A DNA stretch of 59,573 bases. It comes from an uncultured Pseudomonadales bacterium. GTDB taxonomy: Bacteria; Patescibacteriota; Microgenomatia; UBA1400; CAYXSR01. The stretch lies in NCBI GenBank assembly GCA_964430265.1, contig CAYSEI010000001.1, positions 1-59,573 on the forward strand, given 5' to 3'. This document shows, in pieces, positions 1 to 18,875 of the stretch. Within the stretch, counting starts at the first letter, position 1. The number at the start of each line of letters is the position of its first letter. Made by a program: the position numbers and the translations under genes. The notes under the pieces were generated by a model. That model was not told where the DNA came from and ran no database searches. It was given only the letters and a program-made list of their open reading frames with translations.

Positions 1-3000
1 CGATACCAACATTTCCACCAGTTTCATATATAGAAGAGTTAGTCAGTTCTGTTCCTCCGGTTGTCCAGATGGGGATATAGTTATCAGTTCCTGAGCCGTC
101 AATACCGCCGCCAACCTCAGACCAGGAATTACCGTCAAATGCCTGCAGTTGGTTGTTATCAGTATCCCAGGCGAGATATCCTTCGCCTGAACTGGGGTTG
201 GAAAAGCTGTTTGCCTGAGGAAGTCTGAATCCCATTGGTGTTGTAGAACCATGGGTGATTGCTCCAAGATCTAAGAATGTATTATTTGCCAAAGCACCAA
301 GATCATCAATATTGCCGGAACCGTTAAAAGATAAGGTAATGTTGTCTCCAGAGTCATAAATATCATTTCCTCCTAGTTTGAAATCACCGGCTACATGTAA
401 TTGTTGATCAGGGTCAGTTGTTCCAATGCCAAGATTACCAGCAGTTATATAACTTTCTGTGTCCGAATTAATTTTATTTGATAAATTTCCTGATGAATCA
501 TATTGATTAATAGTCCCGTCTCCAAAAACAACAAAACGGTCATTGTCATTATATTTAACTACGATTGGTTTTCTGCCCGCTATGGCATCCTGTAGACCGC
601 CTTTTATTTCTAGAAAATTGGTAGGGGAGGTAGTGCCAATGCTAAAGTTGGTATTTAAGACTGAAAAAGTGTTATCGTCAAAATAGAACTGAGGATTAGT
701 TGCACCGACATTCATTGTCCAGGTAAATGGTGAGCCGGATCCCCAAGTAAGTTCTGAAAGTTCGGTTGAATCAAAAGTTAAATCAAGTTGATTAGCTGTT
801 GCACCGGCAATTGCATCAATTCCTGCTCCTCCCAGAAATGTAGCTGTTTCTCCTGTTCCAATTGCCTGGGCAGTGCTACCGATGTCTCCCATAAGAAGCC
901 AGTCGCCACCTCCAGTTATTTCCGTCCAGCTTGTTCCATCAAAAGCTTGAAGTTGGTTATCATCAGTATCCCAGGCGAGATATCCTTCGCCTGAACTGGG
1001 GTTGGAAAAGCTGTTTGCCTGAGGAAGTCTGAATCCCATTGGTGTTGTAGAACCATGGGTGATTGCTCCAAGATCTAAGAATGTATTATTTGCCAAAGCA
1101 CCAAGATCATCAATATTGCCAGAACCGTTAAAAGATAAGGTAATGTTGTCTCCAGAGTCATAAATATCATTTCCCCCTAGTTTAAAATCACCAGTTATAT
1201 GCAGCTGTTGATCGGGGCTGCTTGTACCAATACCGACATTGCCGCCATCTTCAATAAAGATGCCCAGGGTAGAACTATCATCTAAAAGTTTTAGTCCAGC
1301 TGCTCCGGCAGCAGCTATGGTATTAACATCAATATCATTATCAAGATACAATCCTGAATTATCAGCAGATAAATCATCTCCAGCAGCAACAGTGAGGTTT
1401 TCAGAACCATCAGCTCCAATACCGTCATTTGCAGTATCTGTTACATCAGAAGCATCAAAAGCAAAGGTTAGATCATCATTACCATCATAAGAAACATTTA
1501 CACCTGTACCGGAATTAAAATCAAGTAATTCAGTAGAACCGATCTGATCTTGTTGAGAATTGTTAACATACAAATCCCAGTATTGATAGTTATCAAAACC
1601 AGTGACACTGCCTGAGGTATACAAACCATCTTTAAAAGTTAAGCCATCAGTAGTAGTTGTAGCACCTTGAGTACCATCTTGAGAGTAATAGTCATCAGCC
1701 TGAAGAGATCCTTCTATTTGTAATTGATATCCTGGATCAGTTGTACCAATACCGACATTACCAGTGCTTGAGCTTAAGTATGTTTCTCCGTCACTATTGA
1801 ATGTGCCTTGAACGTCAAACAAGTAGTCTGGTGAAAAGTCTGTACCTACTCCTATATTTCCATTAGAGTCAAAATTCATTCGAACAGTATCATTTGTAAT
1901 AATTTGAAAATCGTTGGAAGTAGTCATTCCAATATGGTATTCACTAGTATCTCTGTTGATAAGAAATTCCGCTGTAGTTCCGGAAATACCAGTATCATTA
2001 TTTAGAATGATACCAGTATCTTTATCTTGAAAAGATTCTACGTTTATAATAGTGTTTTCAGTTGGGTTATATAGGTGAAGCATATTTTGAGGATCAGTAG
2101 TTCCAATACCAACATTCCCTCCTGTTTCATAAATAGAGGAATCAGTTAGTTCAGTTCCAGAGCTTGTCCAGATTGGAATATAGTTATCAGTTCCAGAACC
2201 TCCAACAATACCTGCAGATGAAAGACTTTCCCATTGGGGGTTAGTTCCATTTGAGGAGAGTATATAGTTGTTTGCTCCAATATTTAATTGGTTTAATGTA
2301 TTTGCTCCTGATGCATAAAGCATATCTCCAGTTGTGTAGCTACCAAGACCTGTACCGCCTCTTGTTTCATCAAGGTATTGTTCTGTATTTAAAACACCGG
2401 AAGAGGTATAGACAGGGCCGTCAGTTGTTAAACCGCCAAAGGTAATGGTTCCGTCTGCATCCAGGTTAGAAGAACCAATGTCAATGTTGCCAAAGTTAGA
2501 AGTAATTGAACCACTGTCAAGTGTACCTACTTCTTCCAAAGAAGAGGAGGTAACACCTGTTCCCAAGGCTCCGGCAGACAAAACATCAGTACTATTAATT
2601 TGATATGTATTTCCTGATGTTAAATCAATGGTTCCATCTACATCAATGTTTCCTCCTAGATATGTGTTTCCGGTGACATTTAATTTATAGCTTCCAGGAC
2701 TGGTGTTGCCAATACCGACATTGTATACAGAATCATCTGGGTAAAGGTCATTGGAATCCAGTGTCCAGGGTCCTGCAGTGGAAGAAATATCAGTCCAAGT
2801 TGCGTTGCCTGAAGCATCTGACTGTAAAACATATCCGTTTGAAGATCCACTTGTCATTTGGAAGTTGGTTGTTTGTATTTTACCTTCCACATCCAGGTTG
2901 GTTGCTGGATCTGTTGTACCAATGCCGACATTACCGTTTGAATCAACATACAATCCTTCTGTTCCTCCGGCAGAACCTCTCAACCAGGTAGTTCCGTAAA

Positions 3001-6000
3001 CATCAAGATATGCCTGGGGATTAGTAGTACCAATGCCTACATTTGTAGCTGGATCTAATACTAAAGGACCGACACTGCTTGTAATAGTGCTGGTGCCGCT
3101 GCCACCCACTTCAAACTTCTTGGTGGGATTAGTTGTTCCCAAACCAATATTTCCAGTAGAGGAAATATACAAAGAGGGATTAGTTGCTGGTGCAGTGCCG
3201 CCGATTCCAATATTAGTTCCGGATTGATAAATAGCAGCATCAGTCAGTTCTGTACCTGAGCTTGTCCAAAGAGAAAGATAGTTATCAGTACCAGAACCGC
3301 CTACAATACCTGCAGATGAAAGACTTTCCCATTGGGGAGTGGTTCCATTGGAGGAAAGTATATAGTTATCAGAGCCAATATTCAACTGGCTTAATGTAGT
3401 TGTACCAGAAGCATACAAAAGATCACCAATTGAATAGCTTCCCAAGCCTGTACCGCCTCTTGTTTCATCAAGATAGCTTTCTGTATTTAAAACACCGGAA
3501 GAGGTATAGACAGGGCCGTCAGTTGTTAAGCCGCCAAAAGTGATTGTACCTCCTGCGGATAAGTTGGAAGAACCAATATCAATATTGCCAAAACCAGATG
3601 TAATTGAACCGCTGTTTAGTGCACCCACCTCTTCCAAAGAAGAGGAAGTAACACCTGTGCCCAAGGCTCCGGCAGACAAAACATCAGTAGAGTTAATTTG
3701 GTATGTGCTTCCTGAAGAAATATCAATGGTTCCATCTACATCAACATTTCCACCTAGATATGTGTTTCCGGTGACATTCAACCTATATGTTCCAGGGGAA
3801 GAATTGCCGATTCCCACATTTCCATTAAAGGCTGCAATTGCATTGCTGACATCACTTGGGTTGTATCCTACACCCAGTATTCCGCTGTCAAGATAAACAT
3901 TATTGCCAAAAGTGGAAGAACCGGTTACATCTAAGGTCCCGTCTAAATATGTATTGCCGGTGACATTTAATTTATAGCTGCCCGGATTGGTATTGCCAAT
4001 ACCAACATTGTAGGCAGAATCATCTGGGTAAAGATCATTGGTATCCAGTGTCCAGGGTCCTGCAGTGGAGGAAAGGTCAGTCCATGTTGCATTGCCTGAG
4101 CCATCAGACTGTAAAACATATCCATTTGCAGATCCATTAGTCATCTGGAAGTTGGTGGTTTGTATTTTACCATCCACATCCAAATTAGTTGCCGGATCAG
4201 TAGTTCCGATTCCCACATTACCGTTTGACTCAATAACCATTTCCGGATTTCCGGTTCCATTGGGGTTAAACTGGAATTCATCCAAAGATGCGGAATACCC
4301 CAGAGTTGCATCAGTTGTATCATCAAAATATACTGTTCCGCCGTCAAGGTATAGATCATTGAAATAGTTGGAAGAGCTTCCCAGGTTTAATCCTTTGTTA
4401 GTTACCGGGTAGAGTGCAGAACCGGTTAATCTTAGTTCATCTGCATCTCCAACTCTCCAGGTTATTTGATTATCTGTTGAGAAGTCAACTAGGTTGTGTG
4501 CATCTCTGCCGATTTTACCTGAAGTTCCTAGGTATACTGTGCTGGGAAGGGAAACAGTGGCTGTTCCATCTCCGTCATCTGCAACATCAATTTCATTAGT
4601 TGATCCACTAATCCAAGAAGATGCATTTGTAGAAGTAAGATTTTTGGAACCATCTGTTGCTAATAATCTGGAAGCGGTCAAACCGGAAAGATTTAAGCTG
4701 CTGCCATACATATTTCCATCAACTTCCAAAACATCTTCAACATATAAATCACCATCACCGGTTGCATTATTAATGGTACCGGCATCACCAATTCTTACTT
4801 CATCACCTGTTACTTGTAAAGCTCCAGTTGGATTGGTTAAACCAATACCAACATTACCACTTGATTCTGCATATATAGATGGATTGTTTACAGGGTCGGT
4901 GCCACCAATACCAACGTCATTATTTAATTCATAAATAGAGGAGTCAGTTAGTTCAGTACCAGAACTTGTCCAGATTGGAATATAGTTATCAGTTCCAGAA
5001 CCGCCTACAATTCCTGCATTAGAAACGCTTTGCCATTGTGGAGCAGTTCCGTTAGAAGAGAGAATATAATTGTCTCCGCCAATTCCTAGGGTGTTTAATG
5101 TATTTGCTCCAGATGCATAAAGCATATCTCCAGTTGTGTAGCTTCCAAGACCAGTCCCGCCTCTTGTTTCATCAAGGTATTGTTCTGTATTTAAAACACC
5201 AAAAGAGGTATAGACAGGGCCGTCAGTTGTTAAGCCGCCAAAAGTGATTGTTCCATCTGCATCAAGATTGGAAGAACCAATATCAATATTGCCAAAGTTG
5301 GAAGTAATAGAACCACTGTCAAGTGTACCTACAGACTCCAAAGAAGAGGAGGTAACACCTGTTCCCAAGGCTCCGGCAGACAAAACATCAGTAGAGTTAA
5401 TTTGATATGTATTTCCTGATACTAGATTGATTGTTCCATTTGCTTCAAGATTTCCGTTTAAGTATGTATTCCCCTCAACATAAAGTTTGTAGTCATTGGG
5501 TTCAGTAGTGCCGATTCCCACATTGTATGCAATATCATCTGGGTACAAGTCGTTGTTGTTTAAAGTCCAGGGGCCGGCAATAGAGGAAACGTCAGCCCAG
5601 GTTGCATTTCCTGAGGCGTCAGACTGCATTACATAATTTGCAGCTGCACCATTTGTCATCTGGAAATTAGTAGTCTGAATTTTCCCATCTACCTCAAGAT
5701 TTGTGCCAGGACTGGAAGTGCCAATACCGACATTGCCTAAAATATATGAACTGCTTGTGCTGCCGATATTAATTGCTCCGTCTGCTTGGACGATTCCTTG
5801 TTTGGTGACATGAAATATTTCTTCTGTTCCTTCATTAAATACCTGAAAAGGATATGCAAGTTCTGATAATGAAGAAGAATCTTTGGCAGGGAAATAGTAG
5901 TCGCGCAGGCCGACCATAAACCTGCCGTCTTCATTTACACCGCTGTTTACATACCAGTTGCTGCCATTGTAATGTGTGAATTGAATGTGTCCATAATCGC

Positions 6001-8749
6001 CGCCGCCATAAACAACTCTGAACTCTCCTGGCCTGGCATCATGATTTGCAGAATAGAGTTCAAAGTTGCCTCCGTTAGCTCCGCCCCAGCCAAGATCCAG
6101 GCGGTTGCCGTATGCATCATTGTTTTCTAAATTTAAGAAAAGTCCAGGATTGGGAGTTCCAGCAGGATCATTAGGATGTTGAAAAACAATTCCCGGCATG
6201 TCTGCGTCCCAGGCTCTGGTGCTTGCTGAGCTGTAGTTTAGTATTAATCTTCCATCTGTAGCTGCGTCTGCATCCCAGGTCATGCTGTTACCAGAAACAT
6301 CGGAATTAAATACTACATCAAAATTGTCTCCGTCATCTCCTACAACCAAATTACCGTCAATATGAAGCTTTGCATCTGCAGCTGTGGTACCAATACCTAC
6401 ATTTCCAGATGTTTCATAAATAGAGGAGTCAGTCAGTTCAGTTCCTCCGGTTGTCCAGATGGGGATATAGTTATCAGTTCCTGATCCGCCAACTATTCCT
6501 GCGTCTGGCAGACTTTCCCATTGTGGATTGGTTCCGTTTGAGGTCATTACATAGTCATTAGCGCCAATAGATAGTTGGTTTAAGGTGTCTGTTGCTGAGG
6601 CATAAAGCATATCACCGGTTGTGTAGCTACCCAGTCCTGTACCGCCTCTTGTTTCATCAAGATATTGTTCTGTATTTAAAACACCGGAGGAAGTATAGAC
6701 AGGGCCGTCAGTTGTTAAGCCTCCAAAGGTAATGGTTCCGTCTGCATCCAGGTTAGAAGAACCAATATCAATGTTGCCAAATCCCGAGGTAATAGAACCG
6801 CTGTCTAAAGCCCCCACTTCTTCCAGGGAAGAGGAGGTAACACCTGTTCCCAAGGTGCCGGCAGACAAAACATCAACATCATTTATTTGGTACGTGTTTC
6901 CAGCAGAAATATCAATTGATCCAACTACATCAAGTTTGTCATTGGGATTGGTGGTGCCAATACCCACATTGGTTGCCGGTTCAAAGATAAGGGGACCAAC
7001 TGTGGTGGCAATCGTGCTTTCACCATCGCCGGCTATTTCAAATTTTCTTGTCGGGTTGGTAGTGCCGATACCGATATTAGCATTATTGATTGAGAATACG
7101 CCTGAGTCAAAATAGAATTCGGGATCTGTATTTCCTACATCCATGGTCCAGGTGAATGGAGAACCGGACCCCCAAGTTAAATCTGATAATTCAGTAGAAT
7201 CAAAATCAATTGTCAAATCATCACTTGAGTAAGAAGTATCAATTCCTGTACCGCCTAAAAATGAAGCAGTGTCACCAATTGCGATGCTGCCAGTATTAGT
7301 TCCGTCAGACATCAGCCAGGACTGCATATATCTGCCGTCAAAGTCGGTAGTTAAATCACCGAGTGTGCCTGTTCTGGTTAGGGTTAAAACACCATCACTG
7401 GTATTAAAAGAAGCGCCATCAACATAATCATCATTTGCTCCGGTGCTGACAATTGCAGAATCAAGATCATGTAAAACGTCTTGAACATTTATTGAAGCGC
7501 TGTTTGTAAACTCATCATATGTACCCACTAAATATGCTCCGGAGGTTGTATTGGATGAACCTGTATCGCCAATTCCAATTGAACCAATAATTAGGTCATT
7601 TCCTGAGGAAATATGAATATCTCCAGTTACATCAAGCATATAATTGGAAGGATCAGTTGTACCAATACCGACATTGCCTGTTGCATCAACAAAAAGACCG
7701 GAGGTTCCTCCGCCAACCCCTCTGAGCCAGGCAACATCCTGAACATCAAAATATACTTCCGGATCAGTGGTTCCAATACCAATCTTTCCTGTTCCGTCTG
7801 GAATAAGGGAAATATTTCCATTGCTTTCTGTTGACAAAAACAAATTTTGTCCTTTAATTTCAAAATTACCAGATTCGGAATAGATCATTGGACTAGATGC
7901 GGCCAGATAAAGATCTCCTTCCTGGGTTAGGACAGGAATTCTATCTGCTCCAGCTGAAGCAGAAGGTTCAAAACCCTGCAAGGTTTCTGAGTTTAAAGCA
8001 TATCCGACTGTGGCAATTTGTTGTCGTGGTTCCATTTCCTCATCTGTTTCTACAGTTACTCCAAGATAAAGATTTGCATTTTCTGTAAAAAGGGAAGAGG
8101 GAATAGGATTACCGGGATCATGATCTCCAAGAAGGACATTGAAAATACCGTCCTGATCCGGATCAACTACTCGATATTCCTCCCAAAGCTGGGCTGATCC
8201 AGAAGCTTCATCGTCATTATAGATGGCAAACCGCATGGCAGTAAGAGCATCTATCGGATTATTTGAAGAGTCAGTTAAGCGCCCTTGAAAGGAAAGAATC
8301 CGGTTTGGAGTAGTGGGATCTGTTGCCTGAGGATAAGCAGCTGATTTTCTGGCTTCTTTAGAAAATTGTCTGTATCCGAATATACTCATGGCAACTACAA
8401 AAACTATCAAAATGACGGCATTCAAATATTTGGAAAAGGAAAAATCCTGATAATCTTTATACCAGTCTGGTCTTTGGTATTTAATTTTGTCCGCAATATT
8501 GGAGATTTTTTCTTTTAAGCTGTTTGTTTTAGAAGCTGTTTTTGTCTTAGAAGTTAGGGAGTTTTTAATTTTTTCCGTAACTTGTTCTGCATGGATTAAG
8601 TTATTTTCTTGTGCCCAGTTGCGGAATTTGTCCAAGGAGATTAACTTTCTTTTAATGGTTGAATCAGCCAATCCCTGCCTTTTAAGCTCTTTTTTGTATG
8701 CTTTGATTAGTGTTGGTGATAAATTTTTTAGGGCAGGGTTTTGATTCAT
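1..8749 (-). CDS. Giant surface protein (>2916 aa, C-terminus beyond the window edge): integrase-SAM-like N-domain, one TM helix, then tail-fibre-like repeat modules
   Basis: Absent from the ORF track because there is no stop codon inside the window. Hand translation from ATG 8749-8747 gives MNQNPALKNLSPTLIKAYKKELKRQGLADSTIKRKLISLDKFRNWAQ...YLNAVILIVFVVAMSIFGY (TM)...ILSFQGRLTDSSNNPIDALTAMRFAIYNDDEASGSAQLWEEYRVVDPDQDGIFNVLLG...LYLGVTVETDEEMEPRQQIATVGYALNSETLQG, then many GNVGIGTT(D/S)P units. Segments translated at about 8749-7600, 6418-5940, 2722-2100 and 190-2 are stop-free and share one phase relative to 8749. No other long ORF lies in 1-8745 on either strand. The full 8.7 kb was not checked codon by codon. 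Confidence 0.85.
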   Translation of the reverse strand, partial: MNQNPALKNLSPTLIKAYKKELKRQGLADSTIKRKLISLDKFRNWAQENNLIHAEQVTEKIKNSLTSKTKTASKTNSLKEKISNIADKIKYQRPDWYKDYQDFSFSKYLNAVILIVFVVAMSIFGYRQFSKEARKSAAYPQATDPTTPNRILSFQGRLTDSSNNPIDALTAMRFAIYNDDEASGSAQLWEEYRVVDPDQDGIFNVLLGDHDPGNPIPSSLFTENANLYLGVTVETDEEMEPRQQIATVGYALNSETLQGFEPSASAGADRIPVLTQEGDLYLAASSPMIYSESGNFEIKGQNLFLSTESNGNISLIPDGTGKIGIGTTDPEVYFDVQDVAWLRGVGGGTSGLFVDATGNVGIGTTDPSNYMLDVTGDIHISSGNDLIIGSIGIGDTGSSNTTSGAYLVGTYDEFTNSASINVQDVLHDLDSAIVSTGANDDYVDGASFNTSDGVLTLTRTGTLGDLTTDFDGRYMQSWLMSDGTNTGSIAIGDTASFLGGTGIDTSYSSDDLTIDFDSTELSDLTWGSGSPFTWTMDVGNTDPEFYFDSGVFSINNANIGIGTTNPTRKFEIAGDGESTIATTVGPLIFEPATNVGIGTTNPNDKLDVVGSIDISAGNTYQINDVDVLSAGTLGTGVTSSSLEEVGALDSGSITSGFGNIDIGSSNLDADGTITFGGLTTDGPVYTSSGVLNTEQYLDETRGGTGLGSYTTGDMLYASATDTLNQLSIGANDYVMTSNGTNPQWESLPDAGIVGGSGTDNYIPIWTTGGTELTDSSIYETSGNVGIGTTAADAKLHIDGNLVVGDDGDNFDVVFNSDVSGNSMTWDADAATDGRLILNYSSASTRAWDADMPGIVFQHPNDPAGTPNPGLFLNLENNDAYGNRLDLGWGGANGGNFELYSANHDARPGEFRVVYGGGDYGHIQFTHYNGSNWYVNSGVNEDGRFMVGLRDYYFPAKDSSSLSELAYPFQVFNEGTEEIFHVTKQGIVQADGAINIGSTSSSYILGNVGIGTSSPGTNLEVDGKIQTTNFQMTNGAAANYVMQSDASGNATWADVSSIAGPWTLNNNDLYPDDIAYNVGIGTTEPNDYKLYVEGNTYLNGNLEANGTINLVSGNTYQINSTDVLSAGALGTGVTSSSLESVGTLDSGSITSNFGNIDIGSSNLDADGTITFGGLTTDGPVYTSFGVLNTEQYLDETRGGTGLGSYTTGDMLYASGANTLNTLGIGGDNYILSSNGTAPQWQSVSNAGIVGGSGTDNYIPIWTSSGTELTDSSIYELNNDVGIGGTDPVNNPSIYAESSGNVGIGLTNPTGALQVTGDEVRIGDAGTINNATGDGDLYVEDVLEVDGNMYGSSLNLSGLTASRLLATDGSKNLTSTNASSWISGSTNEIDVADDGDGTATVSLPSTVYLGTSGKIGRDAHNLVDFSTDNQITWRVGDADELRLTGSALYPVTNKGLNLGSSSNYFNDLYLDGGTVYFDDTTDATLGYSASLDEFQFNPNGTGNPEMVIESNGNVGIGTTDPATNLDVDGKIQTTNFQMTNGSANGYVLQSDGSGNATWTDLSSTAGPWTLDTNDLYPDDSAYNVGIGNTNPGSYKLNVTGNTYLDGTLDVTGSSTFGNNVYLDSGILGVGYNPSDVSNAIAAFNGNVGIGNSSPGTYRLNVTGNTYLGGNVDVDGTIDISSGSTYQINSTDVLSAGALGTGVTSSSLEEVGALNSGSITSGFGNIDIGSSNLSAGGTITFGGLTTDGPVYTSSGVLNTESYLDETRGGTGLGSYSIGDLLYASGTTTLSQLNIGSDNYILSSNGTTPQWESLSSAGIVGGSGTDNYLSLWTSSGTELTDAAIYQSGTNIGIGGTAPATNPSLYISSTGNIGLGTTNPTKKFEVGGSGTSTITSSVGPLVLDPATNVGIGTTNPQAYLDVYGTTWLRGSAGGTEGLYVDSNGNVGIGTTDPATNLDVEGKIQTTNFQMTSGSSNGYVLQSDASGNATWTDISSTAGPWTLDSNDLYPDDSVYNVGIGNTSPGSYKLNVTGNTYLGGNIDVDGTIDLTSGNTYQINSTDVLSAGALGTGVTSSSLEEVGTLDSGSITSNFGNIDIGSSNLDADGTITFGGLTTDGPVYTSSGVLNTEQYLDETRGGTGLGSYTTGDMLYASGANTLNQLNIGANNYILSSNGTNPQWESLSSAGIVGGSGTDNYIPIWTSSGTELTDSSIYETGGNVGIGTTDPQNMLHLYNPTENTIINVESFQDKDTGIILNNDTGISGTTAEFLINRDTSEYHIGMTTSNDFQIITNDTVRMNFDSNGNIGVGTDFSPDYLFDVQGTFNSDGETYLSSSTGNVGIGTTDPGYQLQIEGSLQADDYYSQDGTQGATTTTDGLTFKDGLYTSGSVTGFDNYQYWDLYVNNSQQDQIGSTELLDFNSGTGVNVSYDGNDDLTFAFDASDVTDTANDGIGADGSENLTVAAGDDLSADNSGLYLDNDIDVNTIAAAGAAGLKLLDDSSTLGIFIEDGGNVGIGTSSPDQQLHITGDFKLGGNDIYDSGDNITLSFNGSGNIDDLGALANNTFLDLGAITHGSTTPMGFRLPQANSFSNPSSGEGYLAWDTDDNQLQAFDGTSWTEITGGGDWLLMGDIGSTAQAIGTGETATFLGGAGIDAIAGATANQLDLTFDSTELSELTWGSGSPFTWTMNVGATNPQFYFDDNTFSVLNTNFSIGTTSPTNFLEIKGGLQDAIAGRKPIVVKYNDNDRFVVFGDGTINQYDSSGNLSNKINSDTESYITAGNLGIGTTDPDQQLHVAGDFKLGGNDIYDSGDNITLSFNGSGNIDDLGALANNTFLDLGAITHGSTTPMGFRLPQANSFSNPSSGEGYLAWDTDNNQLQAFDGNSWSEVGGGIDGSGTDNYIPIWTTGGTELTNSSIYETGGNVGI
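158..395 (-). repeat. Intragenic near-identical repeat, copy A (partner 962-1199, offset 804 bp = 268 codons)
   Basis: 158-316 matches 962-1120 base for base (159 bp). The first mismatch is g317 vs a1121. Similarity continues with scattered mismatches to about 395/1199. Confidence 0.9.
962..1199 (-). repeat. Intragenic near-identical repeat, copy B (partner 158-395)
   Basis: Same alignment as copy A. Encodes ...GEGYLAWDTDNNQLQAFDG...-type sequence in the giant ORF frame. Confidence 0.9.
2100..6960 (-). repeat. Family of four ~0.6 kb coding modules inside the giant gene (approx. 2100-2725, 3205-3830, 4905-5530, 6395-6960)
   Basis: Long shared strings recur in each copy, e.g. gtccagattggaatatagttatcagttccagaacc, cctcttgtttcatcaag...gtatttaaaacaccgga.gaggtatagacagggccgtcagttgtta and ggtaacacctgt.cccaagg..ccggcagacaaaacatca. 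Copy 2 translates to NVGIGNTSPGSYKLNVTGNTYLGGNIDVDGTIDL...ETRGGTGLGSYTTGDMLYASGANTLNQLNIGANNYILSSNGTNPQWESL...NYIPIWTSSGTELTDSSIYETGGNVGIG. A partial fifth copy ends at 1-100. Boundaries are approximate. Confidence 0.75.
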
Positions 8750-9267
8750 GTTTCGTTTATTTGTTTGCTGCTTTTAGATTGCGAATAATTAGCTCCACCT
8801 CCGGAAGCTTTGTATTTTTCCTGGATAAACTGCCAAAATTGCCTGATATCGGACATGTAGTTTTTGATGGTTGCATCTGACAAGTTTTCTTTTTTTAAAC
8901 TGTTTCTAAATTGGTTAAGGATTTCCGGATCATTGCTTTTTTTGTTTGTTTGCTTGTTGATGTTTTTTAAGCATGCAGTTGGATCATTCTTGAGGTCCGA
9001 AGTTTCTGTAAGAAAAACACCAAACTTGCGCAGGGTAGAAAGATATCGATTGATAGATTTAGTAGGATTATTTTGCTCTAGCAAGTGGGTTTTATAGGAG
9101 GCATAGGTTGATGTGTCCAAAACACTTTTTTGAGTTTTAGCAATCCATATAAGAAACTGCCGAAGATCTGAAGCATAATTTTTGATTGTAATATCGGACA
9201 CTTCCTTGTTTTCAAGATATTTCTTGAATTTCTTAATAATTTTGGTTTGTTGGGCAGGCTGGTTCAT
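8746..9267 (-). CDS. Small protein made of two integrase-N-terminal SAM-like (core-binding-type) repeats, with no catalytic domain
   Basis: ORF track, 173 aa. Two similar units: KKFKKYLENKEVSDITIKNYASDLRQFLIWI and LNQFRNSLKKENLSDATIKNYMSDIRQFWQFI. Its TGA stop (8748-8746) overlaps the giant gene's ATG (8749-8747) as ATGA. Confidence 0.6.
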   Translation of the reverse strand: MNQPAQQTKIIKKFKKYLENKEVSDITIKNYASDLRQFLIWIAKTQKSVLDTSTYASYKTHLLEQNNPTKSINRYLSTLRKFGVFLTETSDLKNDPTACLKNINKQTNKKSNDPEILNQFRNSLKKENLSDATIKNYMSDIRQFWQFIQEKYKASGGGANYSQSKSSKQINET

Positions 9268-14599: not shown

Positions 14600-15568
14600 T
14601 TATTCTTCTGTTTTGATTTCCTCAACCGGAGGAGGGGAAGTCGGTTTGTTTAATTTCTTTTTTCTGGTTACAAGCAAGATGATAATTGTTAAGATGACTG
14701 CCAGTATCAGTGTGATTAGCTTCCAAGGAATGATCCAGAAATAGACCATTGCCTGCAAGGTTTTATTTGTTGATCCGTACTGGGTGGTTAAGACGGCTTG
14801 ATATCTTCCCAGTCTCCATTTCCCCGGGAATTCGTTTTCAAGTACGCGGGATTGGAAAGGAAAGATATTAACTTCTTCAAGGTTAAGATCCGTAACTTTT
14901 TGTTTAAGCATATTGTACACTTTAATGCTTCCTTTAGGACGGATGTGAACGTCGGAAAGGTTTTCAATTTCACTGGTAAAATTAATGGGTCCGTATTCTG
15001 CCATTTTTTTATCAGTTTCAAAACGAATTATTTCTGCATTTTCAGTAATGTCTCCCTCAACTGTTAAATATACTAAGGTGCCGACGTTTTGAGATAGTTT
15101 AGAACCGGTTTCTCCCATGGTTGCAGAGTAATCGGGAGAGTGGAGAATCATTGCATAGTGTCCTCCCGGCGTAGCATCTTGCGGAATTTGGATTAAAACA
15201 TTAACCGGTTGTGTGTCTCCTGCTTTCATTAATGCTTTATTAGGAGAGATTTGCATCCAAGAAGACAAACTCCAACGTGTGGCGACTTCTTCTTCTACGG
15301 GAATCGGTGTTCCCTTATCGTCTTTAACAATAAAATCTTTGGAAATACTATTTATTACTATTTCTTGTTCAGAATCGTTTCTGACCTTGATTGTTTCCTG
15401 TAATGTTTCTCCGGGTGCTCCGGTGAGTTGGACTTTAGGAGGAATTGCAGTCAAAGTAGAGGTTGACTGAGCTTTTACTTTGGTTGTAAAAGGGATTAAA
15501 AATAAACTGAAAAATAAGAAGGTAAATGCTTTTTTTAAATTTGTTCTGTTTGTTCTTTTATTTTCCAT
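14600..15568 (-). CDS. Cell-surface protein with signal peptide and C-terminal TM anchor (DUF916/CscA-like architecture, tentative)
   Basis: 322 aa. Signal peptide ...FTTKVKAQS. TLTAIPPKVQLTGAPGETLQETIKVRNDSEQEIVINS beta-sandwich-like start. C-terminal WKLITLILAVILTIIILLVTRKKK. Confidence 0.5.
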   Translation of the reverse strand: MENKRTNRTNLKKAFTFLFFSLFLIPFTTKVKAQSTSTLTAIPPKVQLTGAPGETLQETIKVRNDSEQEIVINSISKDFIVKDDKGTPIPVEEEVATRWSLSSWMQISPNKALMKAGDTQPVNVLIQIPQDATPGGHYAMILHSPDYSATMGETGSKLSQNVGTLVYLTVEGDITENAEIIRFETDKKMAEYGPINFTSEIENLSDVHIRPKGSIKVYNMLKQKVTDLNLEEVNIFPFQSRVLENEFPGKWRLGRYQAVLTTQYGSTNKTLQAMVYFWIIPWKLITLILAVILTIIILLVTRKKKLNKPTSPPPVEEIKTEE

Positions 15569-15599
15569 GGGCAGTTTGTTTCTAATTTAATTTATTAAT

Positions 15600-17033
15600 T
15601 TAAAATGTTGCTGTGGCAACATATGTAATTGAGTTTTCATAATCTCCCGGCTCCTGAGTGGTGCCGATTGCCAGTCTGTAGCAAACATAAGCGTTTTCAT
15701 TTCCTGAAGGAGTGCTGGTATTATACATGATTTGTAAAGGATCATGTCCGTCTGCAGTAGAAGGAAATGCTCTTGCACAGAATGAAGTGCCGCAGTCACC
15801 ATAGGCAAAAGTTACATTTGCAGCATCAACATTTTCTATTGAATAACCAAATCCGGATTCGTCATTTTCAGATTCCCAGGCTCCGTTTGTATTGTATGCA
15901 CATCCGTCTGCATCACAATCAGTGTCAGCAAGTTCAACAGAGTTTTCTCCGTCAATTGACATCTGGTCGTCTTCAATAACGGTTACGGAATATCCGCTGT
16001 CGGCATTGGTGATACAGGTTAATTCCTGTACAGCATCATTAAATGCTCCCAAAACCAGTGAGCCGAAAGGAACTGAATAAGCAGTGGTGTCAATGGAACC
16101 TGAATCTCTGCTGACTCCGCAGTACGAGCCTGAATCAGCACTAATTCCGTTTATTTCAAATGTGATAGTTGGATCAACAGTAGCAGATACTCTGACTGAT
16201 TCTACTACAGCAACTGATGCGTCTTTGTCATCAATTGTGACGCCACTGTTGTTTTTGTGGCGGACTTTGATAATATAGTCGTCTGCGTCTCCTGGGCTAC
16301 CGACTCCATCAGGAGAAGGATTGATTAAAGGCTGTGTTTCTCCAATTGTAATACTAACTACATCATCAGTAGCGCTGTCTCCAGTATATGTGCATTCAAA
16401 ACAATGATAACCTCCGTTAGCTGTACAGCCGGTTTCTCCATAGTATTTTGCTGTACCTGCAGAAAAGCTGTATGTTCCTGAACCGCTGGTCTGGCTGCAG
16501 GAAACACTGGGGTCAGTTGAATCGTCGCCAAAATCAAAACCATCTTGGTCTGGCAGGCCATCTTTGCTTTTATCAGAGTTTGAGGTTGATTTAATTAAAA
16601 CTTCAAAAGAACCGTTAGAAACAACAGTGTTTGCTTCCAAAGAAATTGTATGAGTAGCTGAACGGGAAGCAACGATTACGTCACTTGCATCATTATCAGC
16701 TGAATCAACTCCGGAAGTGGTTGTAAATTGGGAGGAGGAAACAATTTCGTCTACAGTATATTCGCTTGCTGTATCGTCATTTCCTAAAAGAACCGTGTCT
16801 CCGGGGAAAAGATTGGCAGTATCTGTTGAAGGTCCGGATGAACCAACATTAATTGTTAGTTCAGTTGCGGTGCTGCCGGTTCCGATCTGTCCAAAAAATG
16901 AAAGACGAGAAGTGGACAAGGTATCGGAAACATTGTCTAAAGCACCGGCGTTAGCTGTTTTGGGAGAGAGAAACAAGAAAGTTATTAAAAAAATTAAAAA
17001 ACTCGTTGTAAGAAACTTTTTATTTTTAAGCAT
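15600..17033 (-). CDS. Secreted acidic surface protein, large paralogue of the 18111-18875 product (WxL-like, tentative)
   Basis: 477 aa. Signal peptide ...SPKTANAG. Shares ADTDCDADGCAYNTNGAWESENDESGFGYSIEN and the C-terminal strand GDYENSITYVATATF with the 254-aa protein (DDTTCDNNDCDEIDSGEWDDSNIDGFGYRMSG, GKYKTELVFICTPEY). Confidence 0.5.
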   Translation of the reverse strand: MLKNKKFLTTSFLIFLITFLFLSPKTANAGALDNVSDTLSTSRLSFFGQIGTGSTATELTINVGSSGPSTDTANLFPGDTVLLGNDDTASEYTVDEIVSSSQFTTTSGVDSADNDASDVIVASRSATHTISLEANTVVSNGSFEVLIKSTSNSDKSKDGLPDQDGFDFGDDSTDPSVSCSQTSGSGTYSFSAGTAKYYGETGCTANGGYHCFECTYTGDSATDDVVSITIGETQPLINPSPDGVGSPGDADDYIIKVRHKNNSGVTIDDKDASVAVVESVRVSATVDPTITFEINGISADSGSYCGVSRDSGSIDTTAYSVPFGSLVLGAFNDAVQELTCITNADSGYSVTVIEDDQMSIDGENSVELADTDCDADGCAYNTNGAWESENDESGFGYSIENVDAANVTFAYGDCGTSFCARAFPSTADGHDPLQIMYNTSTPSGNENAYVCYRLAIGTTQEPGDYENSITYVATATF

Positions 17034-17066
17034 TAAAATCTATTAAACTAACTTAAAATTTGTTTG

Positions 17067-18095
17067 TCAAGTGTTACTTTTTCTAAGATAAGATTTTATA
17101 ATTAAGTAAGTCAAAATTAAAACAACAACTACTAGAGGGAATGGAGAAAAGACAAGAAAATAAAAGTGAGTTTTAGTTTTATTTGCAAGATCGATTTGCA
17201 ATTCTGCTTTATATATTCCTGTATTCAATGTATTTACTTTACAAATGGATTTTTGTTCGTCTTCTATGCAAGAAATTTCTCTTTTTTTGTCGGGCAGGAT
17301 ATTTAAGGGGACAAGTTCTTTTTCAGCTGCAGTGCTGCCAAAAATGTTTTTGATTATTAATTTACCTTGGGGTTTAAAATGAAATTTGCCTTTATTTGCT
17401 ATTTTGATCTTAAATTGCGGGTTTTTAAAGCTGCCGATTATTGGAAAACATATTTTTGTTTTAGGAATACAAATTGAATTGTCTAAAGAAAAATCAACAT
17501 TACCTTTCTTTTCCCAATTAATATTACTTGCTACTGTAAGGATAATGTTACTGCCGATAACACCGGAAGTTTTTACTTGCTGTACATTTGTTTGAGCTGA
17601 AGGGTAGCTGCGCACAATTAGGCTGATGAGGAACTCTTTTTGCGGTGTGTTTTCCGGAACTTTAATTTTTAATACCAGTTGTTTTTCTTCATCCCTTTTT
17701 AAGGTAAAAGGTTGTTGCAAGTCAATATTTGCGTTTTGCAAAGAAAACCAAGACAAATAAGGGTGTTGGCTTTGATTTAAACCAGAACGCTCAAGAGGAT
17801 TTAAAAAATCAGGGTCAAGTTTAACCTTTCCTTGTTCACCTTCAGGGTAGGCAGGCACAACATCAGCATATATTTGCGTTTCTTGCCCCATATTTTTTAC
17901 TGTATATACCTGGGTGACTGTTTTTCCGGGTTTAATTGTAACCTCCAATAGAGGAGGGGAGATACCAATGTAAAAAGGTTGTTGGGCAAATGTGTTTTTG
18001 GAAAGTATTAACATAAAAGTGCAAAATAGGATTAAAAAGAAAACAATCTTCTGGAGTGTTTTCTTGCAGTGGTCTAAATTTTTTAAGATTTTCAT
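17067..18095 (-). CDS. Cell-surface protein with signal peptide and C-terminal TM anchor (DUF916/CscA-like architecture, tentative)
   Basis: 342 aa. Signal ...SKNTFAQQ. PFYIGISPPLLEVTIKPGKTVTQVYTVKNMGQETQIYADVVP. C-terminal FPLVVVVLILTYLIIKSYLRK. Confidence 0.5.
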   Translation of the reverse strand: MKILKNLDHCKKTLQKIVFFLILFCTFMLILSKNTFAQQPFYIGISPPLLEVTIKPGKTVTQVYTVKNMGQETQIYADVVPAYPEGEQGKVKLDPDFLNPLERSGLNQSQHPYLSWFSLQNANIDLQQPFTLKRDEEKQLVLKIKVPENTPQKEFLISLIVRSYPSAQTNVQQVKTSGVIGSNIILTVASNINWEKKGNVDFSLDNSICIPKTKICFPIIGSFKNPQFKIKIANKGKFHFKPQGKLIIKNIFGSTAAEKELVPLNILPDKKREISCIEDEQKSICKVNTLNTGIYKAELQIDLANKTKTHFYFLVFSPFPLVVVVLILTYLIIKSYLRKSNT

Positions 18096-18110
18096 TTTAT
18101 TTTTTCTATT

Positions 18111-18875
18111 TTAATATTCAGGAGTACAGATAAAAACAAGTTCGGTTTTGTATTTTCCTGATTCTTGGGTTCCCAATATATTCAGCTTTGCATGGACAGT
18201 TGCTTCCCGTTCTAGAGATATAACATTAGCGCCCATTACTTCTTCTGGTGATTCAGCCGGGTCCTCAATATTGGCAAATTGTTTGTAATAATTGGCTTGG
18301 GTAAAGCCGTCTGCAATATCATCTCCGCTCATTCTGTAGCCAAAACCGTCTATGTTGCTGTCATCCCATTCTCCCGAGTCTATTTCATCACAGTCATTGT
18401 TGTCACAAGTTGTATCATCAATTTCCTCACCGTTTTCATTGCGTAAAGGATGTGACTCATATGCTGTAACTTGGTATCCGCCCACACTGGGTGCATTTAC
18501 TGAAAGGGTAGTGGTTTGTGTTTCCGGTGTTTCCGGAACAAGGGAACCGTAGGCTAAATTTAAATTGGAAATGCTGAAGGAAAATTCTTCAATAGCAGTG
18601 TAAATATATTGAAATCCGGACTTAACAATATATCCGTCTTTGTCATATTCTCCCGGAGCTGTTTGTCCGCTGGTCTGGGTGATTGTTTTACCGGATTTGC
18701 TCATACTGCCACTGCTCATATTAACATTAGGCATCTGGATTACGTATCCGGGGGAATCCATTTGTCCGCGTTCAGCAGATATATTAGAAGGGAATAAAAA
18801 AAAGCCTGTGTATATATATAGTATAAATAAAAAGGGTATTAATCTGAAAAGGTCTTTAATTTTCTTTTTTTTCAT
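18111..18875 (-). CDS. Secreted acidic surface protein, small paralogue (WxL-like, tentative)
   Basis: The track ORF starts at a TTG (18890). The ATG at 18875 (MKKKKIKDLFRLIPFLFILYIY...SNISAE) is preferred. Paralogy motifs are listed under 15600-17033. Confidence 0.5.
   Translation of the reverse strand: MKKKKIKDLFRLIPFLFILYIYTGFFLFPSNISAERGQMDSPGYVIQMPNVNMSSGSMSKSGKTITQTSGQTAPGEYDKDGYIVKSGFQYIYTAIEEFSFSISNLNLAYGSLVPETPETQTTTLSVNAPSVGGYQVTAYESHPLRNENGEEIDDTTCDNNDCDEIDSGEWDDSNIDGFGYRMSGDDIADGFTQANYYKQFANIEDPAESPEEVMGANVISLEREATVHAKLNILGTQESGKYKTELVFICTPEY

What the first reader, a model, noticed from the sequence alone, without database searches (positions are those of the whole stretch)
1..8749. 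8.7 kb apparent ORF desert is one giant gene: integrase-SAM-like cytoplasmic head, TM helix, tail-fibre-like exterior
The ORF track shows only short ORFs across 1-8745. The minus strand nevertheless reads through from ATG 8749 to the window edge, at least 2916 codons. It was missed only because no stop lies inside the window.

Domain order:
- About 45 aa resembling the N-terminal SAM-like/core-binding domain of tyrosine recombinases (...LADSTIKRKLISLDKFRNWA...).
- A basic linker and one TM helix.
- An FQGRLTD...LWEE...LYLGV.V...EM.PR module.
- Kilobases of GNVGIGTT-type fibre repeats.

A DNA-binding-type domain on the cytoplasmic side of a giant extracellular fibre is an unusual topology. It suggests the small domain serves here as a protein-interaction or sorting module rather than in recombination.
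Basis: partly seen in the sequence, partly recalled or inferred. Interest (0 to 1): 0.7.

Follow-up and report, generated by a model that had tools for sequence, protein, structure and literature searches.

The report
Membrane-anchored giant fibre with split recombinase-like tail
The 8.7 kb "ORF desert" is the first 2,916 codons of a giant tail-fibre-like surface protein of a CPR (Microgenomatia-type) bacterium; its short cytoplasmic tail carries half of a recombinase DNA-binding-type domain, the gene just upstream carries the other half, and the pair sits at the end of a CPR Pam-type pilus gene cluster.

Summary
The minus frame from ATG 8749 to the window edge is open for 2,916 codons. It has one TM helix (aa 108-126), a basic N-terminal tail and a very acidic exterior.

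The "SAM-like head" is only the second half (helices C-D) of a tyrosine-recombinase core-binding domain. The 173-aa gene directly upstream (8746-9267, ATGA overlap) carries one full SAM-like domain plus the missing first half.

In 80 related metagenome loci:
- 39 giant genes carry two complete domains fused to the TM helix.
- 35 are split, always at this same point, with gaps from -11 to 919 nt.

So the split is real and conserved. The small protein most likely docks on the fibre's tail by domain complementation. No recombinase catalytic domain is present.

The exterior is a beta-sandwich followed by mosaic repeats like phage tail fibres and Bdellovibrio MAT fibres. Complete relatives (about 420-6,300 aa) add a Peptidase_S74 autochaperone and a conserved C-terminal end; both lie beyond this window.

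The gene closes a conserved cluster resembling the Pam pilus operon of CPR bacteria. A 2026 preprint mentions a co-localised "tail fibre-like protein" there in one sentence only. The family is large (at least 532 clusters) and its anchor module is undescribed. The function of that module remains an inference.

The parts
2..8749 (-). 5' part (2,916 codons) of the giant fibre gene. It starts at ATG 8749 and is open at the window edge.
   Evidence: The frame has no stops. The first start codon after the in-frame stop at 8774-8776 is ATG 8749. Relatives of the N-terminal region are 420-6,346 aa long.
8606..8737 (-). Cytoplasmic 'B' hairpin (aa 5-48): the second half (helices C-D) of a tyrosine-recombinase SAM-like core-binding domain.
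   Evidence: Pfam PF02899 matches profile positions 38-80 of 83. NCBIfam XerD/XerC models match positions 37-93 and 40-92 weakly. AlphaFold2 gives helices 12-24 and 29-48 at pLDDT above 90. The same half-match is seen in relatives L005, L012, L030 and L074.
8459..8473 (-). Juxtamembrane motif RPDWY (aa 93-97).
   Evidence: The motif R-P-x-W-Y is found in 37 of 80 related loci just before the TM helix. It aligns with P0007. Its function is unknown.
8372..8428 (-). Single TM helix (aa 108-126), acting as a signal anchor with the N-terminus inside.
   Evidence: Hydropathy is 2.19. AlphaFold2 models helix 104-131. Residues 1-107 have net charge +12 and pI 10.0, while residues 130-2916 have net charge -279 and pI 4.1. 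The topology itself is inferred.
7964..8302 (-). Membrane-proximal beta-sandwich (aa 150-262), the 'FQGRLTD...LWEE...LYLGV...PR' module.
   Evidence: AlphaFold2 pLDDT is 85-97. It is the most conserved part of the family: F154, Q155, R157 and L158 are invariant. The same module follows a signal-peptide-length N-terminus in fibre-like proteins of many other phyla. Fold searches return only generic Ig-like matches.
6359..6952 (-). Fibre repeat module, copy 1 (aa 600-797).
   Evidence: In protein self-comparison it is 68-89% identical to the other copies. The DNA copies are 81-88% identical.
4871..5737 (-). Fibre repeat module, copy 2 (aa 1005-1293).
3167..4222 (-). Fibre repeat module, copy 3 (aa 1510-1861).
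2069..2935 (-). Fibre repeat module, copy 4 (aa 1939-2227). The stretch just before it (aa 1918-1972) matches Bdellovibrio MAT protein Bd1334.
902..1243 (-). Second repeat type, copy 1 (aa 2503-2616). It lies in the region of the PHROG tail-fibre match.
   Evidence: The two copies are 93% identical. phrog_9942 matches aa 2496-2597.
98..439 (-). Second repeat type, copy 2 (aa 2771-2884). It is followed by the start of a fifth copy of the main module (aa 2881-2916, nt 2-109), which is cut by the window edge.
8746..9267 (-). 173-aa soluble basic protein of 'A-B-A' type: one complete SAM-like domain (aa 11-87) plus the first half of a second (aa 113-147). Its TGA stop overlaps the giant gene's ATG (ATGA).
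   Evidence: Pfam PF02899 E=1.4e-17. The C-terminal hairpin matches profile positions 1-35 of 83 and 1-36 of 85. A separate ABA-type ORF is found upstream in 35 of 80 related loci. Joined to the giant N-terminus, it aligns collinearly with the natural fusion protein P0007.
14600..19602 (-). Conserved upstream cluster on the same strand, resembling the CPR Pam pilus operon. It holds a multi-TM protein (18856-19602), a PamT-like small pilin (18111-18890), a signal-peptide protein with a C-terminal TM helix that may be a chaperone (17067-18095), a Pam-pilin-like 477-aa protein (15600-17033), and a second possible chaperone (14600-15568).
   Evidence: NCBIfam CPR_pilus_PamT E=2.3e-8 and CPR_Pam_pilin_C E=6.6e-7 and 7.8e-5; all three are below the curated cut-offs. 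Among the 20 related loci with more than 9 kb of upstream sequence, homologues are present in 19, 17, 19, 16 and 12. The architecture follows the preprint 10.64898/2026.03.03.709456.

Best explanation
The gene encodes a giant surface fibre of a Microgenomatia-type CPR bacterium, anchored in the membrane at its N-terminus with the N-terminus inside the cell.

The exterior consists of:
- a conserved Ig-like beta-sandwich next to the membrane;
- at least 2,650 residues of mosaic, acidic, Gly/Thr/Ser/Asn/Asp-rich repeats, of the kind seen in phage tail fibres and in Bdellovibrio 'mosaic adhesive trimer' (MAT) fibres.

By analogy with complete relatives, the missing C-terminus should carry a Peptidase_S74 autoproteolytic trimerisation chaperone and a conserved terminal domain.

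The fibre is encoded at the downstream end of a Pam-pilus-like operon. It most likely acts in contact with, or recognition of, the host cell.

The cytoplasmic tail carries the second two-helix half of a tyrosine-recombinase core-binding (SAM-like) domain. The translationally coupled 173-aa upstream protein carries one full such domain plus the matching first half. The two polypeptides most likely reassemble non-covalently into the two-domain module that is a single chain in about half of the relatives. This places a basic, DNA-binding-type module at the inner face of the membrane under the fibre.

That module cannot recombine DNA, because there is no catalytic domain. It more likely serves in anchoring, assembly or signalling.

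Shown: the reading frame, the domain order, the half-domain matches, the conserved split-or-fused alternative, and the synteny.
Inferred: the topology, trimerisation, docking of the small protein, and the adhesion role.
For: **Frame and anchor**
- Open frame and single TM helix.
- Charge asymmetry fits an N-in topology: tail pI 10.0, exterior pI 4.1 with net charge -279.

**Half-domains**
- The giant N-terminus matches PF02899 positions 38-80 of 83.
- The C-terminus of the 173-aa ORF matches positions 1-35 of 83 of PF02899 and 1-36 of 85 of PF13495, the latter at 28 bits against a cut-off of 27.
- The two halves joined score 43.6 bits (E=3.6e-11).
- In the natural fusion P0007, residues 130-213 match positions 1-83 of 83.
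- The upstream ORF joined to the giant N-terminus aligns to P0007 in one collinear BLASTP alignment: E=1e-89, 37% identity over 449 columns, with the junction falling in a linker gap.

**Survey of 80 related loci with half-domain HMMs**
- 39 are fused (ABAB).
- 35 have B in the giant gene and a separate ABA ORF upstream, with gaps of -11 to 919 nt.
- Only 6 are other arrangements.
- Among 136 newly fetched cluster representatives: 89 ABAB and 30 B.

**Fold**
- The AlphaFold2 model of P0007 has four helical hairpins.
- Foldseek matches it to integrase N-terminal domains: 3nrw (TM-score 0.73 normalised to the target, rmsd 2.8), 5vfz, 2a3v, 4a8e and 1ma7.

**Fibre nature**
- phrog_9942 tail fibre E=1.6e-23 and phrog_18345 E=8.5e-7.
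- PDB 8on4, which is Bdellovibrio Bd1334, E=5e-4.
- Peptidase_S74 with the SDxxxK motif in complete relatives.

**Context and catalytic domain**
- Synteny with Pam-like genes. The preprint notes a co-localised tail fibre-like protein.
- No Pfam catalytic integrase domain in any scan.
Against: - The SAM-like hit of the giant protein alone is below Pfam's threshold: 19.0 against 22.3 bits.
- No complex prediction or experiment shows that the small protein binds the tail. The orphan hairpins could instead self-associate, for example three B hairpins under a trimeric fibre.
- The Foldseek E-values for the integrase N-terminal domains are weak (0.18-1.3), because the query was a multi-domain model.
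- Trimerisation and the S74 domain cannot be checked in this gene, because the C-terminus lies outside the window. No SDxxxK motif occurs within the 2,916 residues.
- The Pam assignments of the neighbouring genes are below NCBIfam cut-offs.
- The beta-sandwich has no specific structural relative.
- Homology to the N-terminal domain of Bdellovibrio MAT proteins was not shown.
Confidence: 0.6

Rival explanations
1. The SAM-like module keeps its DNA-binding ability, and the protein is a membrane-tethered DNA-binding sensor. It would resemble ToxR/CadC in topology: DNA-binding domain inside, one TM helix, sensor outside. Contact of the fibre with a host would change DNA binding, or would release the small ABA protein, and so regulate genes or tether the chromosome.
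For: - The cytoplasmic parts are strongly basic across the family: median pI 9.6-10.0, with net charge up to +35 in fused forms.
- The conserved motifs (S..TIKNY..D...F and TIKRKLS.L.KF) are those typical of the recombinase core-binding helices.
- A split form with a detachable soluble half would suit a release mechanism.
- A PaaX-like regulator gene is transcribed divergently next door and recurs in 7 related loci.
Against: - There is no evidence of DNA binding.
- The positive-inside rule alone predicts basic tails.
- About half of the family is covalently fused, so release cannot be general.
- The ToxR resemblance is recalled from general knowledge and concerns topology only. No winged-helix domain is present.
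Confidence: 0.2
2. The split in this window is an artefact or a pseudogene. A frameshift or sequencing error would have broken a single gene that really starts at 9267, or programmed frameshifting would join the two frames.
For: - The two ORFs overlap by ATGA and lie in different frames.
- Joined together, they align collinearly with fused homologues.
Against: - 35 of 80 relatives have the same two-gene arrangement, with intergenic gaps up to 919 nt. A single-base error cannot bridge these.
- The giant frame has a stop only 8 codons upstream of its ATG, and no canonical slippery heptamer lies in that 30-nt stretch.
- A neighbour-joining tree scatters split and fused forms over several clades.
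Confidence: 0.04
3. The region is a remnant of a prophage: a degraded integrase gene next to a phage tail-fibre gene.
For: - PHROG integrase (phrog_1, E=1.4e-7) and tail-fibre hits.
- Public annotation names relatives 'site-specific integrase, partial'.
Against: - There are no other phage genes.
- The flanks hold housekeeping genes: LeuRS, MiaA, ComEC, ArgRS, tRNAs and the L10 leader.
- The TM anchor and the SAM-like module are physically fused in 39 of 80 relatives.
- Synteny with a pilus operon is conserved.
- No catalytic domain occurs in any member scanned.
Confidence: 0.03

Closest known systems
Bdellovibrio bacteriovorus MAT (mosaic adhesive trimer) fibres, S74 and non-S74 types (Caulton et al. 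2024, PMC10769870)
   Same: - Both are long mosaic fibres with GNVGxG-type motifs. The only PDB sequence hit is Bd1334 (8on4, E=5e-4).
- Both have a conserved beta-rich domain at the end nearest the cell.
- Relatives carry S74 chaperones with SDxxxK.
- Both occur in a bacterium that lives on other bacteria.
   Different: - MATs start with a cleavable signal peptide and have no cytoplasmic part. This protein has a signal-anchor TM helix and a recombinase-type tail.
- Its size is 3-6 times larger.
- The S74 domain of relatives is followed by about 500-760 further conserved residues.
- Homology of the two N-terminal beta domains was not shown.
Phage tail fibres and tailspikes with a C-terminal S74 intramolecular chaperone (endosialidase K1F, T5 pb1); PHROG tail-fibre families 9942 and 18345
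   Same: It shares sequence segments with them. Relatives have the S74 domain.
   Different: It is a chromosomal cellular gene, it is membrane-anchored, it is not part of a virion, and it is far longer.
N-terminal SAM-like core-binding domain of tyrosine recombinases (XerC/XerD, integron integrases; Pfam PF02899, PF13495, PF13102)
   Same: It has the same four-helix domain by profile and by fold in the fused homologue.
   Different: - There is no catalytic domain.
- The domain is duplicated, attached to a TM helix, and in half of the family split between two polypeptides in the middle of the second copy.
'Tail fibre-like protein' co-localised with the Pam pilus operon of CPR bacteria (Troman et al. 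2026, bioRxiv 10.64898/2026.03.03.709456)
   Same: The window has Pam-like pilin and chaperone-like genes directly upstream on the same strand, and the synteny is strong. This is probably the same gene family that the preprint mentions in one sentence.
   Different: The preprint does not describe its architecture. A search of its text for 'integrase' and 'recombinase' finds nothing.
Single-pass membrane-tethered DNA-binding regulators (ToxR/CadC type). This is an analogy from general knowledge, not a tool result.
   Same: The topology is the same: a DNA-binding-type domain inside, one TM helix, and a large outside domain.
   Different: The DNA-binding fold is different, there is no evidence of regulation, and the outside part is a fibre thousands of residues long.

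Membership tests
Tyrosine recombinase (XerC/XerD/integrase) | C-terminal catalytic domain (Pfam Phage_integrase, with the catalytic Tyr and Arg-His-Arg residues) | tested here: not met
   There is no catalytic-domain hit in the giant protein, in the 173-aa protein, or in 8 homologues scanned with Pfam (7 complete relatives and P0007). NCBIfam XerC/XerD models match only their first ~100 positions, far below the cut-offs.
Tyrosine recombinase (XerC/XerD/integrase) | N-terminal SAM-like core-binding domain | tested here: met
   The 173-aa ORF matches PF02899 at E=1.4e-17. The giant protein holds only the second half (19 bits). The two halves joined score 43.6 bits.
S74-type trimeric fibres (phage tail fibres / Bdellovibrio MAT) | Peptidase_S74 chaperone domain with the SDxxxK motif | tested here: inconclusive
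   It is absent from the 2,916 residues in the window. It is present in complete relatives L005, L012, L031, L044 and L061. The C-terminus of this gene is outside the window.
S74-type trimeric fibres (phage tail fibres / Bdellovibrio MAT) | Fibre-shaft sequence similarity (beta-helix repeats with GNVGxG-type loops) | tested here: met
   PDB 8on4 (Bd1334) E=5e-4. phrog_9942 E=1.6e-23 and phrog_18345 E=8.5e-7. Many partial hits carry PF13884.
S74-type trimeric fibres (phage tail fibres / Bdellovibrio MAT) | Homotrimeric intertwined assembly | not testable with these tools
   Only single-chain structure prediction was available.
Bdellovibrio MAT family | Conserved ~130-aa beta-rich domain directly after a signal peptide | tested here: inconclusive
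   A conserved beta-sandwich follows the TM helix. In distant relatives it follows a signal-peptide-length N-terminus. No Bdellovibrio sequence was recovered. The MAT N-terminal domain has no solved structure to compare with.
Pam pilus system of CPR bacteria | Pam pilins and the PamT tip pilin encoded in the locus | tested here: inconclusive
   NCBIfam PamT E=2.3e-8 (33.7 bits against a cut-off of 240). Pam_pilin_C scores 29.5 and 22.8 bits against a cut-off of 55. The preprint reports that Microgenomatia homologues share only ~21% identity with the reference.
Pam pilus system of CPR bacteria | Two membrane-anchored chaperones (signal peptide, beta domains, C-terminal TM helix) | tested here: inconclusive
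   The 322-aa and 342-aa proteins have an N-terminal hydrophobic leader and a C-terminal TM helix, and they are paralogues. There is no family hit. A family profile gives only a weak PDB hit to EfmWxLIP1 at E=0.02.
Pam pilus system of CPR bacteria | Co-localised tail fibre-like gene | tested here: met
   Among the 20 related loci with more than 9 kb of upstream sequence, 19 carry a homologue of the 322-aa gene, 19 of the 342-aa gene, 17 of the 477-aa gene and 16 of the 259-aa gene, all on the same strand.

The most novel reading that the evidence does not exclude
The fibre and its split recombinase-type tail form an outside-in contact sensor. Binding or tension on the extracellular fibre would change the association between the membrane-bound half-domain and the soluble ABA protein. 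That would free or capture a DNA-binding module, coupling host attachment to gene expression or to DNA handling in an episymbiotic CPR cell. The competence channel gene ComEC lies in the same window.
Probability: 0.12. Interest if true: 0.85.

Novelty: new variant of a known kind. Interest (0 to 1): 0.62.

Why it matters
- **Biology.** CPR bacteria make up a large share of bacterial diversity and live attached to host cells, but their attachment machinery is barely known.
  - This family is large. There are at least 532 clusters at 50% identity with E<=1e-10, and 559 metagenome loci found with a single peptide pattern.
  - It is among the largest genes of these small genomes, and it is consistently linked to the newly described Pam pilus operon. 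That makes it a prime candidate for a host-recognition fibre.
- **The anchor.** A recombinase core-binding module reused at the inner face of the membrane is a rare natural case of a domain divided between two genes at a fixed point, and this module occurs in both fused and split forms. It gives a directly testable protein-protein interaction.
- **Annotation.** Public annotation currently calls fragments of these genes 'site-specific integrase'. That is misleading, because no catalytic domain is present in the window proteins or in the relatives scanned.
- **Gene catalogues.** Almost every database member is truncated at a contig end, so gene catalogues systematically under-report these giant genes.

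Tried and rejected
- **Recovering the contig beyond position 1.** An exact look-up of the 173-aa protein and exact 55-mer scans of genome contigs and metagenome contigs found nothing. The C-terminus therefore could not be read.
- **Close relatives in genomes.** The search for related loci with the single sequence in genome contigs confirmed no relative.
- **Frameshift joining the two ORFs.** I considered a -1 frameshift and rejected it. A stop lies 8 codons upstream in the giant frame, there is no slippery heptamer, and other loci have large gaps.
- **A 53-aa hydrophobic ORF (9273-9434) upstream of the small gene.** It is not conserved in any related locus, so I dropped it.
- **A Firmicutes-type WxL cluster.** I first read the upstream cluster this way, from its architecture and a weak EfmWxLIP1 profile hit (E=0.02). 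The NCBIfam Pam pilus hits and the preprint superseded that reading.
- **Fold searches of the beta-sandwich.** Searches against the PDB and against viral models gave only generic Ig-like matches.
- **Word-indexed protein searches.**
  - The searches with the repeat module and the beta-sandwich profile returned only proteins no longer than about 1.7 times the query. They could not show full architectures or Bdellovibrio members.
  - PF26696, listed for some hits, was not reproduced by the Pfam copy used here.
- **Profile of the 477-aa pilin-like family against PDB sequences.** No hit.
Full report
**1. Observation**

Translating the minus strand from 8749 to 2 gives 2,916 codons without a stop. 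The other five frames of 1-8749 contain 103-302 stops. The ORF tool omits ORFs that run off the window, which is why the region looked empty.

ATG 8749 is the first possible start. An in-frame TAA lies at 8774-8776, and no start codon lies between it and 8749.

The product is rich in Gly, Thr, Ser, Asp and Asn and contains no cysteine. It has one hydrophobic segment of TM quality, aa 108-126.

The DNA copies of the internal repeats are only 81-91% identical, so assembly collapse is unlikely. Position 1 of the window lies inside a fifth copy of the main repeat. The gene therefore continues beyond the window.

I could not recover the missing part. An exact look-up of the neighbouring protein and exact 55-mer scans of two collections found nothing.

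**2. Setting**

The window is a bacterial chromosome. It holds four tRNAs and an L10 leader, and genes for LeuRS, MiaA, ComEC and ArgRS.

The closest relatives of the N-terminal 338 residues are 51-54% identical. Where a source names them, they come from Candidatus Beckwithbacteria and other Microgenomates or Patescibacteria. Nearly all are marked 'partial' at contig ends, and several are named 'site-specific integrase'.

**3. The cytoplasmic head is half a domain, and the other half is next door**

*Profile matches*
- Pfam matches aa 5-47 of the giant protein to Phage_int_SAM_1 at 19.0 bits. This is below the cut-off of 22.3, and it covers only profile positions 38-80 of 83.
- The 173-aa ORF directly upstream (8746-9267) has a TGA stop that overlaps the giant ATG as ATGA.
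- It holds a full SAM-like domain at aa 11-87 (E=1.4e-17).
- It also holds a C-terminal hairpin that matches the first half of the profiles: positions 1-35 of 83 of PF02899, and 1-36 of 85 of PF13495 at 28 bits.
- Joined in silico, the two halves score 43.6 bits (E=3.6e-11).
- In the homologue P0007, where everything is one chain, residues 130-213 match positions 1-83 of 83.
- The upstream ORF joined to the giant N-terminus aligns to P0007 in one collinear alignment: E=1e-89, 37% identity over 449 columns. The junction falls in a linker gap.

*Survey of relatives*

I built two small HMMs: A for the first hairpin of the domain and B for the second. I applied them to 80 related metagenome loci, taken from 559 relatives found with one peptide pattern.

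| Arrangement | Loci |
|---|---|
| Giant gene with a fused A-B-A-B head, no upstream SAM ORF | 39 |
| Giant gene with B only, plus a separate A-B-A ORF upstream | 35 |
| Other | 6 |

- The gaps between the two genes run from -11 to 919 nt. The split is therefore real, not a sequencing frameshift.
- The split always lies between hairpins 3 and 4.
- A neighbour-joining tree of the beta-sandwich scatters split and fused forms over several clades. This hints at repeated fission or fusion at one permissive point. The tree has no support values.
- Three further loci, fetched through close protein hits, also have a separate small SAM-like gene directly upstream. In two it is A-B-A; in the third it holds one complete domain.

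*Structure*
- AlphaFold2 models the window's hairpin (helices 12-24 and 29-48) at pLDDT above 90.
- It models P0007's head as four hairpins.
- Foldseek matches the P0007 model to integrase N-terminal domains: 3nrw (target-normalised TM-score 0.73, rmsd 2.8), 5vfz, 2a3v, 4a8e and 1ma7. The E-values are weak (0.18-1.3), because the query was a multi-domain model.

No catalytic integrase domain appears in any scan.

**4. Membrane anchor**

Residues 1-107 have pI 10.0 and net charge +12. Residues 130-2916 have pI 4.1 and net charge -279. With a single TM helix, this argues for an N-in, C-out signal anchor. The topology is an inference.

Across the family the cytoplasmic parts have a median pI of 9.6-10.0. 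An R-P-x-W-Y motif just before the TM helix recurs in 37 of 80 loci.

**5. Exterior**

*Beta-sandwich*
- Residues 150-245 are modelled as a beta-sandwich at pLDDT 85-97.
- This is the most conserved part of the family.
- It has only generic Ig-like structural neighbours.
- The same module sits directly after a signal-peptide-length N-terminus in fibre-like proteins of Omnitrophota, Chloroflexota, Elusimicrobiota, KSB1 and others.

*Repeats*
- One module of about 200-350 aa occurs four times, with a fifth copy cut by the window edge.
- A 114-aa module occurs twice at 93% identity.
- A third module also occurs twice, at 59% identity.

*Similarities of the fibre*
- PHROG tail-fibre families match: phrog_9942 at E=1.6e-23 and phrog_18345 at E=8.5e-7.
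- The only PDB sequence hit is 8on4 (E=5e-4). This entry is Bdellovibrio Bd1334, a 'mosaic adhesive trimer' fibre.

*Complete relatives*
- They lack any catalytic integrase domain.
- Five of the seven complete relatives scanned with Pfam carry a Peptidase_S74 domain. An SDxxxK motif is visible at the start of it in four of them. It lies about 500-760 residues before the C-terminus.
- The ends are conserved, reading ...NWW(I/L)(I/V)N.
- One relative has an intein.

The window protein has no S74 match and no SDxxxK motif in its 2,916 residues. Those parts, if present, lie beyond the edge.

**6. Family size and specificity of the anchor**

A profile of the tail plus TM helix alone was searched against 1.84 billion cluster representatives. 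It found 3,824 proteins at E<=0.001 and 532 at E<=1e-10, with lengths up to 6,346 aa.

Of the 136 newly fetched representatives, 89 are ABAB and 30 are B. By a strict pattern, 81 of the 117 with enough sequence after the TM helix carry the FQGRLTD-type module. Most of the rest show variant motifs on inspection, or a second hydrophobic segment that misled my TM finder.

A few short members (for example P0342, 420 aa) go almost directly from the anchor to the conserved C-terminal end.

The anchor is therefore specific to this fibre family. It is not a general sorting tag.

**7. Genomic context**

Five genes lie upstream on the same strand:
- a multi-TM protein;
- a 259-aa secreted protein;
- a 342-aa protein with a leader and a C-terminal TM helix;
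- a 477-aa secreted protein;
- a 322-aa protein with a leader and a C-terminal TM helix.

Pfam finds nothing in them. NCBIfam matches the 259-aa protein to CPR_pilus_PamT (E=2.3e-8) and to CPR_Pam_pilin_C. It matches the 477-aa protein to CPR_Pam_pilin_C. All of these hits are below the curated cut-offs.

The preprint that defines the Pam pilus (10.64898/2026.03.03.709456) describes pilins, a tip pilin PamT, and two chaperones with C-terminal TM helices. It states in one sentence that a 'tail fibre-like protein' consistently co-localises with the operon. Its text contains neither 'integrase' nor 'recombinase'.

In my 80 loci, homologues of these genes lie upstream on the same strand. Among the 20 loci with more than 9 kb of upstream sequence, the counts are:

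| Upstream gene | Loci with a homologue (of 20) |
|---|---|
| 322-aa | 19 |
| 342-aa | 19 |
| 477-aa | 17 |
| 259-aa | 16 |
| multi-TM | 12 |

**8. Interpretation**

The best-supported reading is a giant fibre of the S74 or MAT class, anchored in the membrane at its N-terminus. It belongs to the Pam pilus locus and probably serves in host contact.

Its cytoplasmic tail and the small upstream protein together rebuild a two-domain recombinase core-binding module. That module is used for something other than recombination.

Docking by domain complementation is inferred from three things: the fixed split point, the fused homologues, and the complementary profile halves. It was not tested directly, because only single-chain prediction was available.

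Whether the module binds DNA is open. It may be a sensor or a tether, or only a structural platform.

**9. Literature**

Full-text searches combining the SAM-like integrase domain with CPR or Patescibacteria found no description of this architecture. A paper on giant genes does not mention it.

Noticed in passing
window 14600-19602 (minus strand): A conserved five-gene cluster resembles the newly described CPR Pam pilus operon. [quoted passage not shown] All family hits are below the curated cut-offs.
   Followed up: partly
window 43531-49002 (plus strand): A second very large gene (1,823 aa) combines a Peptidase_M48 domain near the N-terminus with an ABC1 atypical kinase domain near the C-terminus.
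   Followed up: no
window 2-8749 (protein): The 2,916 residues contain no cysteine at all. Eight complete relatives of 1,727-3,289 aa have 2-13.
   Followed up: no
L012 (protein aa 638-868); proteins P0001, P0005, P0006: Some relatives carry an intein (Hint or Intein_splicing domains) inside the fibre. In P0001 the sequence breaks off at ...GQ|CVTGDT, right after a GNLGLGTT motif.
   Followed up: no
L005, L012, L031, L044, L061: In complete relatives the Peptidase_S74 domain is not terminal. About 500-760 conserved residues follow it, ending in ...FNWW(I/L)I. Cleavage at S74 would release an unusually large fragment.
   Followed up: partly
window 10844-12291 (minus strand): Two genes lie between the pilus cluster and the fibre. 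One encodes a TM-anchored IPT/TIG protein. The other encodes a TM-anchored retropepsin-like aspartyl protease with a low-complexity N-terminus. Both recur only in the closest syntenic locus, L006.
   Followed up: partly
window 9896-10729 (plus strand): A PaaX-like regulator gene (PaaX_C and PaaX_M domains) is transcribed divergently from the small SAM-like gene, across a 630-nt AT-rich spacer. A homologue lies upstream of the giant gene in 7 related loci.
   Followed up: partly
L004-L083 (neighbour-joining tree of the beta-sandwich): Split and fused forms of the anchor are interspersed in the tree. This suggests several independent fissions or fusions at the same inter-hairpin linker. The tree has no support values.
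   Followed up: partly
proteins P0342, P0330, P0298, P0331: Minimal family members (363-894 aa) have the ABAB head and the TM helix but lack the FQGRLTD beta-sandwich module. P0342 and P0330 go on to the conserved C-terminal end (...FNWLI(V/I)N). P0298 and P0331 end in ...ISPI..., probably truncated.
   Followed up: no
proteins P0007, P0011, P0014, P0048, P0053, P0054 (public names): Public annotation names fragments of this family 'site-specific integrase' or 'phage integrase SAM-like domain-containing protein'. Some are assigned to non-CPR taxa (Marinimicrobia, Methylococcales, Eisenbacteria). The names are probably misleading, and the taxon assignments may be binning errors.
   Followed up: no
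window 12303-14546 (minus strand): A 747-aa protein has a leader, two internal repeats with Big_13 domains, a Pro/Ser-rich linker and C-terminal TM segments. Homologues lie upstream of the fibre gene in 11 loci. It might correspond to the membrane-tethering PamR, but this was not tested.
   Followed up: no
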